Source: Escherichia phage BEU50. From it: a DNA stretch of 64,000 nt. The notes beneath the pieces are model-generated. The model saw only the letters and a program-made list of their open reading frames with translations. It was not told where the DNA came from and ran no database searches. The DNA lies in sequence record OM632671.1; one strand, 5' to 3'. The translations under genes were made by a program, and so were the position numbers. Below are positions 9,820 through 21,900 of this stretch, piece by piece. How positions within the stretch are numbered: position 1 is the first letter of the stretch; every line of letters begins with the position of its first letter.

Positions 9820-10401
9820 ATGGCGAGTTTAATTTTTACTTACGCAGCAATGAATGCTGGAAAATCTGCTTCTCTTTTGACTGCTGCACATAATTATAAA
9901 GAACGCGGAATGAGTGTATTAGTTCTTAAGCCTGCTATTGATACTCGCGATTCTGTCTGTGAAGTCGTTTCTCGCATTGGAATTAAGCAGGAAGCGAATA
10001 TTATTACAGATGATATGGATATTTTCGAGTTCTATAAATGGGCTGAAGCACAAAAAGATATTCATTGCGTATTTGTAGATGAAGCTCAGTTTTTAAAAAC
10101 TGAACAGGTGCATCAATTAAGTCGAATTGTTGATACATATAATGTTCCTGTTATGGCTTATGGATTAAGGACTGATTTCGCTGGAAAATTGTTTGAAGGT
10201 TCTAAAGAACTTTTAGCGATTGCAGATAAACTTATTGAACTAAAGGCAGTTTGTCATTGCGGCAAAAAAGCGATTATGACAGCTCGATTAATGGAAGATG
10301 GAACACCAGTTAAAGAAGGTAATCAAATCTGTATTGGTGATGAAATTTATGTTTCTTTGTGTAGAAAACATTGGAACGAATTAACTAAAAAGCTCGGTTA
10401 G
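9820..10401 (+). CDS. tk: thymidine kinase
   Basis: 193 aa; P-loop AAMNAGKS; C-terminal Cys cluster. Confidence 0.9.
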   Translation: MASLIFTYAAMNAGKSASLLTAAHNYKERGMSVLVLKPAIDTRDSVCEVVSRIGIKQEANIITDDMDIFEFYKWAEAQKDIHCVFVDEAQFLKTEQVHQLSRIVDTYNVPVMAYGLRTDFAGKLFEGSKELLAIADKLIELKAVCHCGKKAIMTARLMEDGTPVKEGNQICIGDEIYVSLCRKHWNELTKKLG

Positions 10402-10443: not shown

Positions 10444-10656
10444 ATGCTACAATTAACTGAAAAGCAACTTCGCAATCTTACTGTTCTTCAATTAGATGAA
10501 ATTCGTAGGGAAGTTGGAAATATCATTTCAGCTTTGCGTCGAGAAGTATCACTCAACCAATCTCCGGCAGACTATACTAGATTGCGAAATTTTGAAAAAT
10601 ACCTTGATAAAGTTAAGGCCGTGCATCGGCATAAAGTAAATACAGGACAAAAATGA
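10444..10656 (+). CDS. hypothetical small protein
   Basis: 70 aa ORF in tk-nrdC region. Confidence 0.45.
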
Positions 10657-10668
10657 TAGGAGGCCTTT

Positions 10669-10962
10669 ATGGCCTTAAAAGCAACGGCACTATTTGCCAT
10701 GCTAGGATTAGCGTTTGCTTTATCTCCATCGATTGAAGCGAATGTCGATCCTCATTTTGATAAATTTATGGAATCTGGTATTAGACACGTTTATATGCTT
10801 TTTGAAAATAAAAGCGTAGAATCATCTGAACAGTTCTATAGTTTTATGCGAACGACTTATAAAAATGACCCGTGCTCTTCTGATTTTGAATGTATAGAGC
10901 GAGGCGCGGAGATGGCACAATCATACGCTAGAATTATGAACATTAAATTGGAGACTGAATGA
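10669..10962 (+). CDS. hypothetical secreted small protein
   Basis: 97 aa, RBS AGGAGG, N-terminal signal peptide. Confidence 0.5.
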   Translation: MALKATALFAMLGLAFALSPSIEANVDPHFDKFMESGIRHVYMLFENKSVESSEQFYSFMRTTYKNDPCSSDFECIERGAEMAQSYARIMNIKLETE

Positions 10963-11345
10963 AATTCAGCGACTTTTCACAAAGTGGAAAACCTTCAAAG
11001 GCAGATGAATACTTAGGTTTATTAATGGCTGCACAAGCTTATTTTCATTCTGCGCATTTTGAAACTAAAAGTTATGCTAGACACAAAGCATACGATTTTA
11101 TTTTCTCCGAGTTGCCAGATTTGATTGATAAATTTGGTGAGCAATATTTGGGGTATTCTGGTAGAAAATACACACCTTCAATTCCAGATGCTAGTAAACT
11201 TCCTACCGACACAATTAAAATGATTGATCGCATACTAGACCAATCTAACAGCATTTATAAAGAAATGCCTCCAGCCATTCAAAGCACGATAGATGATATC
11301 ACTGGGATGTTTTATCAGAGTAAATATCTTCTTTCCCTCGAATAA
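10959..11345 (+). CDS. hypothetical protein
   Basis: 128 aa ORF, overlapping start with upstream stop. Confidence 0.5.
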
Positions 11346-11350
11346 CGTTA

Positions 11351-11372
11351 GTCTCCTTCGGGAGACTTTTTT
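11351..11372 (+). terminator. rho-independent terminator GTCTCC-TTCG-GGAGAC plus T6
   Basis: perfect hairpin followed by TTTTTT. Confidence 0.7.
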
Positions 11373-11382
11373 CATTTTACCG

Positions 11383-11412
11383 GTTTACTTTCCATTTGAG
11401 CTGTGATACTAT
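11383..11412 (+). promoter_or_regulatory. T4-type early promoter
   Basis: GTTTAC, about 18 nt, TACTAT. Confidence 0.55.
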
Positions 11413-11440
11413 ACAACCATCGGATAAAGAGGAGAACATC

Positions 11441-11629
11441 ATGAAAATTGAAGCACTTAATCAAGAAGGAAATATCTACGTCATCATTAATGGTGATTTT
11501 TTCGTCGACATGGATGAAGTTACCAGTGAAGAACTTGTAGAACTTCTTAAGAAACGTTATAATATGTGTGATGAAGTTGCAACTCACATGGCGTGTGCAA
11601 TATTCTCTCTTTCATATGTGGTGGAATAA
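11441..11629 (+). CDS. hypothetical small protein
   Basis: 62 aa from ATG 11441 with RBS AAGAGGAG. Confidence 0.45.
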
Positions 11630-11645
11630 TGAAAACTGAAAAGCA
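11620..11645 (+). repeat. 26 nt direct repeat copy 1 (GGTGGAATAATGAAAACTGAAAAGCA)
   Basis: identical 26-mer spanning stop/RBS/start; second copy at 12010. Confidence 0.8.
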
Positions 11646-11832
11646 AGCGGATAAAATTAAGGAATTAGTGGCTTCAATTCGTAAAGCAGATGAAGAGCTG
11701 ATTGACTTTGCTTGGTATTCATCGGGTATTTCGAATAAAGGCATTAAAGACTTTGAAACTAAAGTTGATAATGCTTTAGAAGCGTTAGATATGTTTCTTG
11801 ATGAAATTATCGATCATAATACGAGAGTTTAA
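11629..11832 (+). CDS. hypothetical small protein (MKTEKQ start)
   Basis: 67 aa from ATG inside the 26 nt repeat. Confidence 0.45.
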   Translation: MKTEKQADKIKELVASIRKADEELIDFAWYSSGISNKGIKDFETKVDNALEALDMFLDEIIDHNTRV

Positions 11833-11834
11833 GT

Positions 11835-12029
11835 ATGCTAACACGTGAACAGTTTGAAAAAATCATTAAATTAGCACGTGATGTTGAAATAGATTCATAT
11901 CAATTAGCAGTTGAGCATTGTGAAGGATATTCATACGATGGTATAGAATCAGCTAAAAGGGATTTGGATAAATCTAAAGCTAAGTTAGTCCAATATCTTG
12001 AAATGATTAGGTGGAATAATGAAAACTGA
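11835..12029 (+). CDS. hypothetical small protein
   Basis: 64 aa ORF. Confidence 0.45.
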   Translation: MLTREQFEKIIKLARDVEIDSYQLAVEHCEGYSYDGIESAKRDLDKSKAKLVQYLEMIRWNNEN

Positions 12030-12035
12030 AAAGCA
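12010..12035 (+). repeat. 26 nt direct repeat copy 2
   Basis: identical to 11620-11645. Confidence 0.8.
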
Positions 12036-12192
12036 GATGTTTTTAATGAAACTAATTGAAGAATATGCTAATGCAGTTTCTGACTATGAGCGTTCTTCTC
12101 GGGAAAGAGGTACAGCTTTCGCCAAAGAAGAAATGAAAATCATGGTTGATGCTCACACAAAGCTTCAGAATTTTATTGAAAACAACATTTAA
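12019..12192 (+). CDS. hypothetical small protein (MKTEKQ start)
   Basis: 57 aa from ATG inside repeat copy 2. Confidence 0.35.
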   Translation: MKTEKQMFLMKLIEEYANAVSDYERSSRERGTAFAKEEMKIMVDAHTKLQNFIENNI

Positions 12193-12194
12193 CG

Positions 12195-12224
12195 GTTTAC
12201 AAGTTGGCAAGGTTATGGTATAGT
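12195..12224 (+). promoter_or_regulatory. T4-type early promoter
   Basis: GTTTAC, 18 nt, TATAGT. Confidence 0.55.
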
Positions 12225-12359
12225 AATCTTGTCAACTGTCAAGGAGAAGAGAATGAAAGTTTTGTTTGTTGTGTATGTAATGATTCAATATAATTACCCA
12301 ATGTTTACTTATAATCTGGTGAACAACATTATTGATATTATTCAAAGGAGTATGTAATT

Positions 12360-12590
12360 GTGAGTGAGTCGAAGAGAATCAATATGAAACGATTAGTATT
12401 AGAAGTTAGTCCGCTTTTTGGTGAATTGGCTATAGAAAAAGTAAATAACATGTATCGTTTGACGCAAGAAGACGATATGCTATATTTTACGCCTAGTGAA
12501 ATCATTCATTTAACCCAAATTGAATATCCTTATACTGATAAAATAGTAAGTATCAATGATGAGCACAAAATTCATTGCTCGTTTGATTGA
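12360..12590 (+). CDS. hypothetical small protein
   Basis: 76 aa; GTG start 8 nt after AAGGAG (alternative ATG at 12384). Confidence 0.4.
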   Translation: MSESKRINMKRLVLEVSPLFGELAIEKVNNMYRLTQEDDMLYFTPSEIIHLTQIEYPYTDKIVSINDEHKIHCSFD

Positions 12591-12680
12591 AGTTGAAGCC
12601 CAAATTGCAGAACACACCAAATTGTTAAAAGCTCTTAATGCAAAAGCAAATGGTTTACGTAATGCTATTGAGGTATTGAA

Positions 12681-12995
12681 ATGAAAAAGCGTCTATTAGA
12701 AGACATTGCAGCTTCAAGTAATTCCAGTTTAATTAAAATTATTATGGCCGGTGAAGAAGACGATCTGGAAATGCGTGGAAAGATTTATGGTTGTGATGAT
12801 TATAGCAGCCCTATTAATTGGGATTCTGTAATGGTCATGGTTGAACGTCGCGAAAGGGCTTCTAAAAACGTTCCTAATTGCCCTGAATGTGGAACTGAAC
12901 AGGTGCAATTAGTCCATTGGCAGACTAATAATCTTCGTTATAAATGTCGCCATTGTAAACACCGATTTGACCGAGAAGAAAATGACAAAGCGTAA
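12681..12995 (+). CDS. hypothetical zinc-ribbon protein
   Basis: 104 aa; CPECG…CRHCKH. Confidence 0.5.
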
Positions 12996-13225: not shown

Positions 13226-13489
13226 ATGTTTAAAGTATATGGTTATGATAGCAACATCCATAAATGTGTGTATTGCGATAATGCAAAACGTCTTTTGACC
13301 GTGAAGAAACAGCCGTTTGAATTTATCAACATTATGCCGGAAAAAGGTGTTTTTGATGATGAGAAAATCGCTGAGCTTCTGACTAAACTAGGTCGTGATA
13401 CTCAAATCGGCTTAACAATGCCTCAGGTATTTGCTCCTGATGGAAGTCATATTGGTGGATTTGACCAATTGCGGGAATACTTTAAATGA
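13226..13489 (+). CDS. nrdC: glutaredoxin/thioredoxin NrdC
   Basis: 87 aa; CVYC active site. Confidence 0.85.
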   Translation: MFKVYGYDSNIHKCVYCDNAKRLLTVKKQPFEFINIMPEKGVFDDEKIAELLTKLGRDTQIGLTMPQVFAPDGSHIGGFDQLREYFK

Positions 13490-13996: not shown

Positions 13997-14482
13997 ATGA
14001 TTACAGTAGATAAGTGGTTTAGAATTAATCGTGTTGATACAGGGCTATGTAATTACTGGCCGGAACTTAGTGCAGGTACTGTCTTTAAAGTTCGTGAACT
14101 TGCAAAAGAATGTGAAGATGATATAGAACCTGATACTGGAATTATTGAAATTGAACTTTCTGATGGAAAGATTATTAACATCTATGATAAGCCAATTACG
14201 TATTGGTGCTTGTGGAATACTGAATCCGTTGAAAATGGCGAAATTGAAGAAGTTGTAGAGAGAACTAGCCAAGATGCTCAGAAGCCTAAAGCCGCTTTTC
14301 AAGGTGAACGTATTTCATACGCATTAGCTAAATTAGCTGCACAAGAAAATAACGATGGTTATGAAGGAAATTTAATGCAAGCTGCCGCAGAGTACATTGA
14401 ATGGCTTGAAACTCAAATTTCTTTTTCTGACCAAATGATTCGGCAATATAAGCGATTGCATCAAATGTTTTACAATACTTGA
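13997..14482 (+). CDS. pin: Pin-like protein (protease inhibitor position)
   Basis: 161 aa from ATG 13997 with RBS GGAGA; length and position match T4 pin. Confidence 0.55.
   Translation: MITVDKWFRINRVDTGLCNYWPELSAGTVFKVRELAKECEDDIEPDTGIIEIELSDGKIINIYDKPITYWCLWNTESVENGEIEEVVERTSQDAQKPKAAFQGERISYALAKLAAQENNDGYEGNLMQAAAEYIEWLETQISFSDQMIRQYKRLHQMFYNT
14408..14482 (+). repeat. direct repeat copy A (3-prime end of pin)
   Basis: two sub-blocks (26 nt and 48 nt) recur at 14483-14510 and 14648-14695. Confidence 0.75.
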
Positions 14483-14695
14483 AAAAACTCAAAATTCTTT
14501 TTCTGACAAGGCATTTTAATGAAAACCGAATTGGTTTATACTGAAAAGTTAAATGGCGGTAAGGTTTGGAAACTTTTTATTAAAGGACATTCTACGGACC
14601 CTCATATGACCACTTGCGTAGGAACCTATTCTCGTCCTACTAAAAAGATGATTCGACAGTATAAACGATTGCATCGAATGTTTTACAATACTTAA
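14483..14695 (+). repeat. direct repeat copy B flanking a 58-codon ORF
   Basis: AAAAACTCAAAATTCTTTTTCTGACA at 14483 and ATGATTCG…TACAATACTTAA at 14648. Confidence 0.75.
14519..14695 (+). CDS. hypothetical small protein sharing Pin C-terminal 15 aa
   Basis: 58 aa ending MIRQYKRLHRMFYNT, the same tail as the pin ORF. Confidence 0.4.
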   Translation: MKTELVYTEKLNGGKVWKLFIKGHSTDPHMTTCVGTYSRPTKKMIRQYKRLHRMFYNT

Positions 14696-14704
14696 ATAAT
14701 AAAT

Positions 14705-18995: not shown

Positions 18996-21900
18996 TTATT
19001 CAACCCATTCAAATTTAACAGTTTTATTCACTGGGTCAGGAATAATGCGAACATTACCAATTCGTAAGAAATCACGAATAGTAAGATTACCTATTATTCC
19101 ATTATCAGATGGGATTGCTCCTATATCCGAAGGTTGAGGAGGATTACCTCCATCGAATACCTGAACAAAACTTGACCAAGAGTTTTTGGTTTTCTGCCAT
19201 GTACGTGTCCAGCGAGTGGTACGTGCTTCTGGGGTCGTTGGATAAGTAATCCAATCTTGGTAAAGTGAATCAAGTGTGTTACCAAACTGAGTCAATGTAC
19301 CAGGAGATTTAACTTCTTCACCGCGTTCTAAATATGGAAGTCCAGTCACTTCATTAGTTTTTTCAACCATTTTAAAATAACCCGGGAACTGGTTATAAGT
19401 GGCTGAATCATTAATATCGATTGACCAGAATCCTACAGTATCAGATGTTGGCGCACGGGTATATAAATCAGATGTTTTAACACCTTGAGAACGAATTCTC
19501 GAGTTAACAGTTAAACCGCCTGAACTTATAGTAGCACCTTTTGCAATGATTAAGCTTTCACCAATCGTTACTTGGCCAGATGCATTATTAATAGATAAAG
19601 GACGTAATCCATTAAATCCGCCAGTTTGATCACCCGATGCAGTAAGCATAAAATTCGTTACTGACCCATCATTGCGAACAATGAAACCATAATTTCCGTT
19701 AATAGCACGGAAAGCATTTGCGCTTCGAGAAATAATTTCACCAGTTGCAGTGACTGAATTACCAAATGTTGCTACACCATTTGCATTCAATGTTCCTGAA
19801 GCATTAACATTTATCGGTGTTACTGTACCGTTGATATTAAATGTTATATTTCCAGCTTTATTACGCTGAGAATAAAAATGACTAGACGTTTCATCACTAA
19901 CTTCAAATACGGTAGAACGTGTTGTGTCTGATTCCCCACTAAATTGATTTCCCCACACTCTGACTGTCATCGTTTGAGCCGGGTTTGTTCCAGTTTGAGG
20001 TCCTTTCTCAAAAATCAATCGAGTTGCCGTTCCAGTATTAGAAATAGTTAATGTACTATTTGCTGAAACTGATCCACCGAATGTAGCAGTACTAGATGAT
20101 ACAAGAGGGGCACTCAGATTCGTTTGTTGGGTTAAGGTTAGTGAACCATTAACTGTTTGTGCAATGTCCCTACGAATGAACTGGAGCGAATCTAGACCAT
20201 CTAATAAATTACTATCTACAGCTTTTGCTTTTAATGGCAAATAATTTGCTAATACGCGATTTAATTCATATGGTGATACTGCATAACCATTTTTCTCATA
20301 TGATTCTAATGGTTGTGTTGAACCTACCGTATCATTACCAACGAATGTAATTGAACCAGATGAAGTTTTAACAAACCCTCTTATCAGAGTAGTTGCTGCC
20401 CAAGTTGGTTCACTCTGCACAATCCATTTTAAATTTTTTGGAGATACAGCAGTATTTGCTGATGTTCCAGTCACAGTTTCAGACTGAGTTGCAACTTTAA
20501 TAACACCTTCCTGTGCTTCAGTAGATTTAGTACCTAAAAGCTTTTTAGGAGTTATTAAAACATTATCTAATGTTCCTGCAGCAGCTTCAACTTGTGTAGC
20601 TACACGAAGTGTACCACGCTGTGTCTCATTTGCTTCAAGAATATTAAGTGTATAATGGTCCCAGAGAGTTCCTGATTCAACTAATCCAGATAGAGCAACA
20701 ACAGAAGTACGATCAGTACTATTAAATCTAGTTTTAATTTTTAATGGTGTAGAGATGCGAGTATCGTCGACGCCTGCGTCGAATTCAACTTGCGTAGCAA
20801 TTTCAGCTATACCACTTAAACTTTCAGTTGCTCTACGGTCATTTAAAGTTTTAGGAGTGACTGCACGAGTATAGTCAGTTCCTGTGTTAACTTCACTTTG
20901 CGTAGCAATTTCAATTAAACCAATTCTTCCATCAGTTGATGTCTTTTTATGTAACGTTTCTGGCGTTACAACCGCATTTGCCCATCCTTCTTGGCTTTGT
21001 CCAGCAATTACTTCACTTTCAACTGCTAAAATTACTGCGCCTTGTTGCGTTGGAGTAGCTTTATACTGATCCAAAGCTTTAGGTGAAACAACTAAATTAT
21101 TAGTGTTTTTATTATAAACATTCGTACCATTTAATTCACGGCTAGAAGCTGGAGTAGCTCCTGCAGTAGATACATAAGTTACAATACCAGATAATGATTC
21201 AGAACCTTGGCGAGCTTGAAGCTTTTTAGGAGTGATGATTGTAGTATCATCAGTACCTGTATTAGTTTCCTGCTGCGTAGCAATTTCAGCGACACCTCTA
21301 CGAGTTTCTGTAGCAGTTCTTTCATTCAGCTTTTTAGGAGTGATGATAAGGTCATCTGCAAAAGAGAATGTGGTGTTCTGATTCACTTGAGCAGTAGTTG
21401 CTATTCTTGCAATACCTCTGCGAGTTTCTGTAGCAGTACGATTAGCTAACGTTTCTGGAGTAATTGCTAATTCTTTTTGTGGAGAATTTTCTAAATCAGC
21501 ATTTGCTTGAGCTTGCGTAGCTAAAGCAATTACGCCTAATCTTGCTCTAGTAGAAGCATTTAAAGAGTCTACTCTTTCTACAGTTGGAACGTTTTGCTGT
21601 ACAACCCAGCATTTTCCATCAGAATCTTCTATATAAGCAAGTTGTAAAACTGGAACATAATTAGTTTCACCGTTAAAAACTAATTCTTGAACTGTTACCC
21701 ATTCAGCTTCAGGCGGATATTCTGAACGTTTTGGGAATTGCAGCAATTGAACTGAGGAAGCAATTTTATCTTCACCTGCAGCTTTGATTTTAACTGTTTG
21801 TCCTTTTCTCATGTAATTCATGGAAATTTTAACAGTATCACCAACAGAAATATCAGTCGGAAGCTGAAGTTCAATTGTTTGGGTTGTTCCATTATTCGCG

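What the first reader, a model, noticed from the sequence alone, without database searches (positions are those of the whole stretch)
11620..12035. Identical 26 nt stop-RBS-start module repeated 390 bp apart
GGTGGAATAATGAAAACTGAAAAGCA occurs twice, each time providing the stop of one small gene and the RBS plus MKTEKQ start of the next. The downstream proteins are otherwise unrelated. This looks like a portable translation-initiation junction used to splice small accessory ORFs into the tk-nrdC hyperplastic region.
Basis: seen in the sequence. Interest (0 to 1): 0.4.

Follow-up and report, generated by a model that had tools for sequence, protein, structure and literature searches.

The report
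Short gene-conversion patch between paralogous phage gene starts
Two neighbouring small genes of a T4-like phage begin with the same 26 bases because a stretch of about ten bases was copied from the start of one related gene onto another, which is an ordinary by-product of phage replication and recombination, not a mobile "splice-in" module.

Summary
The exact 26-nt repeat (11620-11645 and 12010-12035) is real and not due to chance. The window is a Tequatrovirus (T4-like) early region: tk, rI.1, rI, rI.-1, mobD.5, mobD.4, mobD.3, mobD.2a, mobD.2 ... nrdC. The repeat lies at the mobD.5/mobD.4 junction (J1) and the mobD.3/mobD.2a junction (J2).

mobD.4, mobD.3 and mobD.2a are a tandem trio of paralogues (Pfam DUF7438, full length, E 1e-15 to 3e-17).

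In about 98% of sequenced relatives, including T4 and RB51, J1 and J2 share only a 13-nt SD-stop-start core (GGTGGAATAATGA). There mobD.4 starts MISIEQ, MISVEQ or MTSIEQ, and the outgroup VR7 has MITLEQ. The window and six GenBank phages carry six clustered substitutions in 9 nt (11633-11641), all matching J2. J2 itself is unchanged in all 498 records.

So the 26-mer is a derived, non-reciprocal short-patch transfer from J2 to J1, either a templated strand-switch mutation or ectopic gene conversion between imperfect direct repeats.

The "portable junction" idea is not supported for the 26-mer. However, 14-15 nt of J2 is the breakpoint of a multi-gene deletion in five relatives, so shared initiation-region sequence does occasionally guide rearrangements here. 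Interest is low.

The parts
11620..11645 (+). J1: copy 1 of the 26-mer, at the mobD.5 stop / mobD.4 start. It is the recipient of the patch. The left 10 nt are the last mobD.5 codons (V-E-stop).
11633..11641 (+). Minimal converted tract: six substitutions relative to RB51-type relatives (11633, 34, 36, 38, 39, 41), all matching J2. They change mobD.4 codons 2-5 from ISIE to KTEK.
12010..12035 (+). J2: copy 2 of the 26-mer, covering the mobD.3 3' end and stop and the mobD.2a start. It is the donor. The 80-nt stretch spanning J2 is at least 95% identical in all 498 related records.
11441..11629 (+). mobD.5 (62 aa, phrog_3024), first gene of the early transcription unit. Not a DUF7438 member.
11629..11832 (+). 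mobD.4 (67 aa), DUF7438 paralogue; N-terminus MKTEKQ here, MISIEQ/MISVEQ/MTSIEQ in most relatives.
11835..12029 (+). mobD.3 (64 aa), DUF7438 paralogue. It overlaps mobD.2a by 11 nt.
12019..12192 (+). mobD.2a (57 aa), DUF7438 paralogue.
11350..11412 (+). Terminator stem-loop (11350-11367) followed by a T4-type early promoter (about 11383-11412) upstream of mobD.5. This is the left border of the four-gene transcription unit and is a PeSL-like element.
   Evidence: terminator; terminator and early-promoter features annotated at the same place in ASO78A; PMC1702504 (mobD.5 promoter)
12196..12224 (+). Early-promoter-like site (TTTACA-17-TATAGT with TG) upstream of mobD.2; right border of the unit.

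Best explanation
The two junctions are the 5' ends of two diverged tandem paralogues, mobD.4 and mobD.2a. Both are members of the DUF7438 trio mobD.4-mobD.3-mobD.2a in one early transcription unit of a T4-like phage.

Ancestrally the junctions formed an imperfect direct repeat 390 bp apart, about 20 of 26 nt identical, with a perfect 13-nt SD-stop-start core GGTGGAATAATGA. In the lineage that includes this window, a very short stretch (at least 9 nt, at most 26 nt) was copied non-reciprocally from the mobD.2a start (J2) into the mobD.4 start (J1). That raised the identity to 26/26 and changed the mobD.4 N-terminus from MISIEQ to MKTEKQ.

The most likely mechanism (inferred) is a templated mutation. 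A nascent strand ending in the shared 13-mer mispairs with the other copy, copies a few bases, and returns. The alternative is a short heteroduplex or ectopic gene-conversion patch made by the very active T4 recombination system.

Functionally, each junction is an ordinary translational-coupling junction. The SD lies inside the upstream coding sequence and the upstream stop overlaps or closely follows the downstream ATG. The patch has no demonstrated function. It may have been neutral, or mildly favoured by its A-rich second to fifth codons.
For: Shown:
- The repeat is exact and not due to chance.
- mobD.4, mobD.3 and mobD.2a all match DUF7438 over its full length (E 4e-15, 3e-17, 1e-15). The leave-one-out HMM agrees.
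- T4, RB51, KIT03, KMB40, D5505 and Ptacy1496 have ATGATTAGT.../ATGACTAGC... at J1 and share only GGTGGAATAATGA with J2.
- The outgroup Gaprivervirus VR7 has mobD.4 starting ATGATTACTTTGGAGCAA (MITLEQ), so the MI-type start is ancestral.
- Only 7 listed records (6 distinct phages: VEc20, SHFML-26, ASO78A, ESCO58, ph0021, PsgM02F) of 426 carry the window-type J1. No intermediate alleles appear in the identity bands.
- The window-type J1 is absent from IMG/VR, where all four 26-mer hits are J2, and from JGI metagenome contigs.
- Window vs RB51: 31 differences in 911 nt, six of them within 9 nt. The permutation P for such a cluster is 3.5e-5, and all six are identical to J2.
- The 80-nt stretch spanning J2 is at least 95% identical in all 498 records, so the transfer was one-way.

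Established knowledge:
- Templated mutations that copy an imperfect repeat elsewhere and then return have been described in T4 (Schultz, Carver and Drake 2006, as summarised in PMC3016281).
Against: - The return switch would have only 4 nt (AGCA) of homology on the right, which is short for either mechanism.
- The patch sits on several flanking haplotypes. Markers at 11611 and 11682 differ among carriers. So either it arose more than once or it was spread by later recombination; I cannot tell which.
- No direct observation of the event exists.
- An unsampled donor phage cannot be excluded.
Confidence: 0.8

Rival explanations
1. Portable translation-initiation junction: a reusable stop-RBS-start cassette that travels with, or is used to splice in, accessory ORFs in the hyperplastic region.
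For: - J2 is the exact breakpoint of a deletion that joins mobD.3 to nrdC.11 in F13076, HY03, G8, ELT1, RPN226 and IMG/VR contig L017.
- VR7 keeps GGTGGAATAATGAAAC at the end of mobD.5, but an unrelated ORF109c follows.
- The 26-mer has stops in both non-coding frames.
- 6 of 22 CDS in the SHFML-26 mobD-nrdC stretch start ATGAAAAC.
Against: - There are only two copies in 64 kb, even of the 13- and 14-nt cores.
- The two genes headed by the junction are paralogues.
- The 26-nt identity is derived and confined to a few phages.
- Gene order is constant in 488 of 501 relatives.
- At J1 the left 10 nt are simply the conserved C-terminal codons of mobD.5.
- The window's own 8.7-kb deletion in the same region is mid-gene, with at most 5 nt of imperfect homology.
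Confidence: 0.07
2. A divergent mobD.4 5' allele was imported by ordinary homologous recombination from an unsampled phage lineage. Its match to J2 would then be inherited from an event in that lineage, or from deeper paralogy.
For: - T4-like phages are mosaic.
- The flanks of the patch differ among carriers.
- Codons 2-5 of mobD.4 are polymorphic anyway, with MISIEQ, MISVEQ and MTSIEQ alleles.
Against: - This only moves the conversion event to another genome.
- No donor lineage was seen in 426 GenBank records matching the J1 query, in IMG/VR or in JGI metagenomes.
- The identity to J2 extends to synonymous positions.
Confidence: 0.06
3. Convergent point mutations selected for a better initiation region, with A-rich codons after the AUG.
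For: - The predicted local mRNA structure around the start is slightly weaker in the converted J1 (-5.4 vs -6.9 kcal/mol).
- ATGAAAACT is over-represented in the window (7 observed vs 1.7 expected).
Against: - It requires six simultaneous changes with no intermediates among 426 records.
- All six reproduce the neighbour's exact codons.
Confidence: 0.03
4. A simple recent tandem duplication of one gene or of a two-gene unit.
For: - The spacing of 390 bp equals two gene lengths.
- The genes are paralogues.
Against: - Nucleotide identity is limited to 26 nt.
- Pairwise BLASTP finds nothing beyond the six shared residues.
- The trio is present and already diverged in all Tequatrovirus relatives, and a diverged mobD.4/mobD.3 pair is present in VR7.
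Confidence: 0.02

Closest known systems
Templated (strand-switch) mutations between imperfect repeats in phage T4 (Schultz, Carver and Drake 2006; reviewed by Kreuzer and Brister, PMC3016281)
   Same: A cluster of simultaneous base changes that exactly reproduces a nearby imperfect repeat. The donor is unchanged. It happens in the same replication and recombination system.
   Different: Those cases were recovered as laboratory mutants in reporter genes. This one is a natural variant carried by several isolates. The donor is a paralogous gene start 390 bp downstream, and the mechanism is inferred rather than observed.
Ectopic (inter-paralogue) gene conversion in tandem gene families (general mechanism; e.g. 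PMC3758752)
   Same: One-way transfer between diverged tandem paralogues, producing a local island of identity.
   Different: The tract is extremely short (9-26 nt), with only 13 nt and 4 nt of flanking identity. That is far below the usual homology requirements, which is why a template switch is favoured.
PeSL cassettes (promoter-early stem-loop) of T4-type phages (Arbiol et al. 2010, PMC2839356; Comeau et al. 2014, PMC4122927)
   Same: Short conserved expression signals at gene borders in hyperplastic regions that act as crossover points and preserve gene boundaries. In PeSLs, crossovers were mapped between the SD or ATG and the -10 box. The J2/nrdC.11 deletion here resembles this.
   Different: The 26-mer has no stem-loop and no early promoter. 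It lies inside an operon, has two copies rather than many, and heads paralogous rather than unrelated genes. Real PeSL-like elements lie at 11350-11412 and 12196-12224, outside the repeat.
Overlapping stop/start (TAATG, ATGA-type) translational-coupling junctions of phage operons
   Same: The SD lies inside the upstream ORF, and the upstream stop overlaps or closely follows the downstream start.
   Different: Nothing differs functionally. Only the extended identity between the two junctions is unusual.

Membership tests
DUF7438 (PF24219) tandem paralogue family (mobD.4, mobD.3, mobD.2a) | Full-length match to the Pfam model above the gathering score | tested here: met
   56.3, 63.1 and 57.9 bits against a cut-off of 25, covering model positions 1-57; a leave-one-out HMM finds mobD.2a at E 7.6e-6; no other member in the window.
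Templated mutation / short-patch ectopic gene conversion | A donor sequence pre-exists in the same genome and stays unchanged (non-reciprocal) | tested here: met
   The 80-nt stretch spanning J2 is at least 95% identical in all 498 records. The exact J2 26-mer is present in relatives that have the ancestral J1.
Templated mutation / short-patch ectopic gene conversion | The ancestral state of the recipient differs, and the derived state is phylogenetically restricted | tested here: met
   T4, RB51, KIT03, KMB40, D5505 and Ptacy1496 and the outgroup VR7 have the MI/MT-type start. The converted type is in 7 listed records (6 phages) of 426.
Templated mutation / short-patch ectopic gene conversion | Multiple clustered changes, all identical to the donor, with no intermediates | tested here: met
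   Six changes within 9 nt out of 31 in 911 nt, P = 3.5e-5. The identity bands show no partial alleles.
Templated mutation / short-patch ectopic gene conversion | The event is observed directly, or depends on replication/recombination proteins (gp32, gp41, UvsX) | not testable with these tools
   Needs phage genetics or deep sequencing of clonal stocks.
PeSL (promoter-early stem-loop) cassette | A composite of a terminator stem-loop, an early promoter and an SD | tested here: not met
   The terminator is at 11350-11367 and the promoters are at about 11383-11412 and 12196-12224. None lies in or next to the 26-mer copies.
PeSL (promoter-early stem-loop) cassette | Many near-identical copies flanking unrelated ORFs in hyperplastic regions | tested here: not met
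   Two copies only, and the genes they head are paralogues.
Portable junction / mobile cassette | ORF content varies at the repeat boundaries among close relatives | tested here: inconclusive
   Gene order is constant in 488 of 501 records, and no J1xJ2 deletion or duplication product was among the best-ranked records. But the J2 x nrdC.11-start deletion occurs in five phages plus one IMG/VR contig, and different ORFs follow both genes in VR7.
Recent tandem duplication | Extended nucleotide identity across the duplicated unit | tested here: not met
   Identity ends after 26 nt. BLASTP between the paralogues is not significant.
Known structured RNA | Rfam match | tested here: not met
   No Rfam hit at E <= 1 in 11200-12400.

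The most novel reading that the evidence does not exclude
Short templated patches like this one may repeatedly homogenise the initiation regions (SD, ATG and first codons, e.g. AATAATGAAAACTG) of neighbouring and even non-homologous genes in the mobD-nrdC hyperplastic region. The resulting 13-26-nt microhomologies would then act as 'translational mini-PeSLs' that guide deletions and swaps while preserving gene boundaries.

Three hints point this way:
- The F13076/HY03-type deletion falls at J2 x nrdC.11.
- 6 of 22 CDS in the SHFML-26 stretch start ATGAAAAC.
- nrdC.11 has two clustered start alleles, one of them closer to J2.
Probability: 0.12. Interest if true: 0.45.

Novelty: new member of a known kind. 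Interest (0 to 1): 0.15.

Why it matters
It is a clean natural example, with a donor, a recipient, an outgroup and population frequency, of a very short non-reciprocal sequence transfer between diverged paralogues in a T4-like phage. Such multi-nucleotide patches can be mistaken for rapid adaptive change or for mobile modules. They also create longer direct repeats that could promote later deletions.

The example also shows that shared initiation-region sequence can be a deletion breakpoint in the hyperplastic region. Beyond that it is ordinary genome housekeeping noise. No new element, function or system is involved.

Tried and rejected
- Chance: rejected by shuffles.
- More copies of the module: none in the window at up to 3 mismatches, nor of the 13- or 14-nt cores.
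- Unequal crossover products between J1 and J2: chimeric queries for the 390-bp deletion and for the duplication gave only two-piece matches among the top-ranked of about 500 records.
- Reverse conversion (J1 into J2): not seen. The 80-nt stretch spanning J2 is at least 95% identical everywhere.
- Structured RNA: no Rfam hit.
- Pairwise BLASTP between the paralogues was uninformative. Pfam and HMM profiles were needed.
- A homologue search with mobD.2a returned only close relatives and frameshifted or truncated variants, with no chimeras with mobD.4.
- The local HMM found no further DUF7438 members in the window.
- A single donor for the alternative nrdC.11 start allele was not found in the loci at hand.
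- Searching the literature for DUF7438/PF24219 found nothing. mobD.2a-mobD.5 appear only incidentally in two papers.

Full report
**Observation.** The 26-mer GGTGGAATAATGAAAACTGAAAAGCA occurs exactly twice on the + strand, at 11620-11645 and 12010-12035. There are no other matches at up to three mismatches, and no match in 100 dinucleotide-preserving shuffles. It is the only exact repeat of this size in the 64-kb window. Identity ends at 26 nt on both sides. Each copy holds a GGTGG Shine-Dalgarno-like element, an ATG that opens an ORF starting MKTEKQ, and the stop of the upstream ORF. The two stops lie in different frames. One is TAA overlapping the ATG (TAATG) at 11627-11629. The other is TGA at 12027-12029, 8 nt after the second ATG.

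**Where this is.** The window is a Tequatrovirus (T4-like) genome read in the direction of early transcription. A 911-nt query around the finding matches 501 phage records at 90-98% identity, 488 of them over at least 80% of its length. From the annotated RB51 and T4 records the genes are:

| Gene | Window coordinates |
|---|---|
| tk | 9820-10401 |
| rI.1 | 10444-10656 |
| rI | 10669-10962 |
| rI.-1 | 10959-11345 |
| mobD.5 | 11441-11629 |
| mobD.4 | 11629-11832 |
| mobD.3 | 11835-12029 |
| mobD.2a | 12019-12192 |
| mobD.2 | 12253-12357 |
| nrdC | 13226-13489 |

- The repeat copies lie at the mobD.5/mobD.4 junction (J1) and the mobD.3/mobD.2a junction (J2).
- The four genes form one early transcription unit.
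- A terminator hairpin at 11350-11367 and a T4-type early promoter at about 11383-11412 precede mobD.5 (same features annotated in ASO78A; a mobD.5 promoter is used as a control in PMC1702504).
- A second early-promoter-like site at 12196-12224 follows mobD.2a.
- No Rfam family matches the region.

**The downstream proteins are related.** mobD.4, mobD.3 and mobD.2a each match Pfam DUF7438 (PF24219) over the whole 57-position model, at E 4e-15, 3e-17 and 1e-15, well above the gathering score. PHROGs links them too: mobD.4 and mobD.3 match phrog_653, and both mobD.4 and mobD.2a match phrog_4859. Pairwise BLASTP shows nothing beyond the six shared residues. However, an HMM built only from mobD.3, MISIEQ-type mobD.4 and a fourth paralogue from phage P8 finds mobD.2a at E 7.6e-6. 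The three genes are therefore an old, strongly diverged tandem triplet. No further members occur in the window.

**The 26-nt identity is derived.**
- In T4, RB51 and KIT03 the J1 sequence is GGTGGAATAATGATTAGT(A/G)T(A/C)GA(G/A)CA, with mobD.4 starting MISIEQ or MISVEQ. It shares only the 13-nt core GGTGGAATAATGA with J2.
- D5505 and Ptacy1496 have a third allele, MTSIEQ.
- In the outgroup Gaprivervirus VR7, mobD.4 starts ATGATTACTTTGGAGCAA (MITLEQ), so the MI-type start is ancestral.
- An 80-nt J1 query finds the window-type allele in only 7 listed records (6 distinct phages) of 426: VEc20, SHFML-26 (two records), ASO78A, ESCO58, ph0021 and PsgM02F. All other records fall 6-10 mismatches away, and no intermediate class exists.
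- All four IMG/VR hits to the 26-mer are J2 copies. A J1-specific 27-mer is absent from JGI metagenome contigs.
- By contrast, the 80-nt stretch spanning J2 is at least 95% identical in all 498 records.

**A patch, not a duplication.** The window differs from RB51 at 31 of 911 positions. Six of these lie within 9 nt (11633, 34, 36, 38, 39, 41). The permutation probability of such a cluster is 3.5e-5, and all six changes reproduce the J2 sequence, including synonymous positions. The transferred tract is therefore at least 9 nt and at most 26 nt. It is bounded by 13 nt of pre-existing identity on the left and 4 nt (AGCA) on the right.

The donor is unchanged, so the event was non-reciprocal, from J2 to J1. 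This fits templated mutation by transient strand switching to an imperfect repeat, a process described in T4 by Schultz, Carver and Drake (2006), as summarised in PMC3016281. The alternative is a very short ectopic gene-conversion patch between paralogues. Which of the two operated is inferred, not shown.

The carriers have different flanking markers at 11611 and 11682. So the patch either arose more than once or was moved between backgrounds by the frequent recombination of these phages.

**Test of the 'portable junction' idea.**

Against it:
- Only two copies exist, even of the 13- and 14-nt cores.
- The genes headed by the junction are paralogues.
- Gene order mobD.5-mobD.4-mobD.3-mobD.2a is constant in 488 of 501 relatives.
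- Chimeric queries for the expected 390-bp deletion or duplication product gave only two-piece matches among the top-ranked records.
- At J1 the left 10 nt are simply the conserved last codons of mobD.5 (…YVVE-stop), which VR7 also keeps.

Partly for it:
- In Salmonella phage F13076, and in HY03, G8, ELT1, RPN226 and IMG/VR contig L017, mobD.3 is joined directly to nrdC.11. The breakpoint lies inside (G)AATAATGAAAACTG, which J2 shares with the nrdC.11 start of T4/TB004-type phages.
- Because mobD.1 and its neighbours are present in the other Tequatrovirus relatives and in both outgroup genera, this is a derived deletion of mobD.2a through the gene preceding nrdC.11.
- In VR7, different ORFs follow both mobD.5 and mobD.3.

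So shared initiation-region sequence does occasionally serve as a crossover point that preserves gene boundaries. This resembles the PeSL cassettes of Arbiol et al. (PMC2839356) and Comeau et al. (PMC4122927). But the 26-mer lacks the stem-loop, the promoter and the multi-copy distribution that define a PeSL. The window's own 8.7-kb deletion in the same region is mid-gene, with almost no homology, so such modules are not required.

**Function.** Both junctions look like ordinary translational-coupling junctions (inference from anatomy). The patch replaces codons ISIE with KTEK. Predicted local mRNA structure changes little, from -6.9 to -5.4 kcal/mol. No function is known for DUF7438, and no papers mention it.

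**Verdict.** The statement that the proteins are unrelated is wrong. The proposed mechanism is largely unsupported. The best explanation (confidence about 0.8) is a recent short templated or gene-conversion patch between the starts of two anciently duplicated paralogues. This is a new instance of a known process and of low general interest. Its modest value is as a clean natural example, and as a hint that microhomology at translation-initiation regions contributes to rearrangements in the mobD-nrdC hyperplastic region.

Noticed in passing
window 12360-12684 (junction at about 12572-12576): Relative to its closest relatives (e.g. SHFML-26), the window lacks 8,745 bp. The deletion joins the N-terminal part of mobD.1 (a 76-aa ORF at 12360-12590 carrying only the T4_y05I_N domain) to the last ~40 codons of a 309-aa gene upstream of nrdC (remnant ORF 12556-12684). 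The junction shows at most an imperfect 5-nt match (TCATT vs TCAAT). None of 608 matching phage records spans this junction.
   Followed up: partly
L007 3640-3700 (F13076); also HY03, G8, ELT1, RPN226 and L017: A multi-gene deletion joins mobD.3 directly to nrdC.11. The breakpoint lies inside the 14-15-nt (G)AATAATGAAAACTG shared by J2 and the nrdC.11 start.
   Followed up: yes
L010 2490-2545 vs L011 2490-2545 / L006 4850-4900: The nrdC.11 start exists as two alleles (MKTVMKS... and MKTVVKS...) that differ at about 9-10 positions within 30 nt, while the flanks are nearly identical. The T4/TB004 allele is closer to J2 (18 of 19 nt). This may be another clustered patch at a gene start. No single donor was found in the loci at hand.
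   Followed up: partly
L013 1255-1290 (VR7): VR7 ORF109c is annotated from an ATG with no SD. An in-frame ATG six codons upstream overlaps the mobD.5 stop (TAATG) and has the GGTGG SD, so the annotated start is probably wrong (MKLTNTMVSLEYE...).
   Followed up: no
relatives of window 11629-12192 (RefSeq records): Many RefSeq and other records label the small mobD.x genes 'molybdopterin-guanine dinucleotide biosynthesis protein MobD'. This is a name collision with the T4 mobD (mobile endonuclease) locus names, and the annotation error has propagated. The phrog_4859 label 'helicase loader' for a 61-aa DUF7438 paralogue also looks doubtful.
   Followed up: no
window 11717-11737 and 12121 (compared with L006 T4 and L008 KIT03): T4 and KIT03 lack 21 nt (7 codons) of mobD.4. 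T4 also lacks one base at the position equivalent to 12121, which frameshifts mobD.2a to the 38-aa form annotated in the reference genome. The 57-aa form in this window is the common one.
   Followed up: partly
window 14435-14486 and 14648-14699: A 52-nt direct repeat at 88% identity, 213 nt apart, covers the 3' end and stop of an ORF (…MIRQYKRLHQMFYNT). It suggests another pair of adjacent paralogues downstream of nrdC.
   Followed up: no
window 20488-21464: Four diverged copies (63-72% identity) of a 68-nt unit, with a nested 20-nt repeat. This is probably an internal repeat of a coding sequence.
   Followed up: no
L012 (SHFML-26 mobD-nrdC stretch): Six of 22 annotated CDS in this 11-kb stretch start with ATGAAAAC (MKT...), mostly in genes with no detectable homology to one another. 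In the 64-kb window, only one likely gene start besides J1 and J2 has ATGAAAACT.
   Followed up: partly
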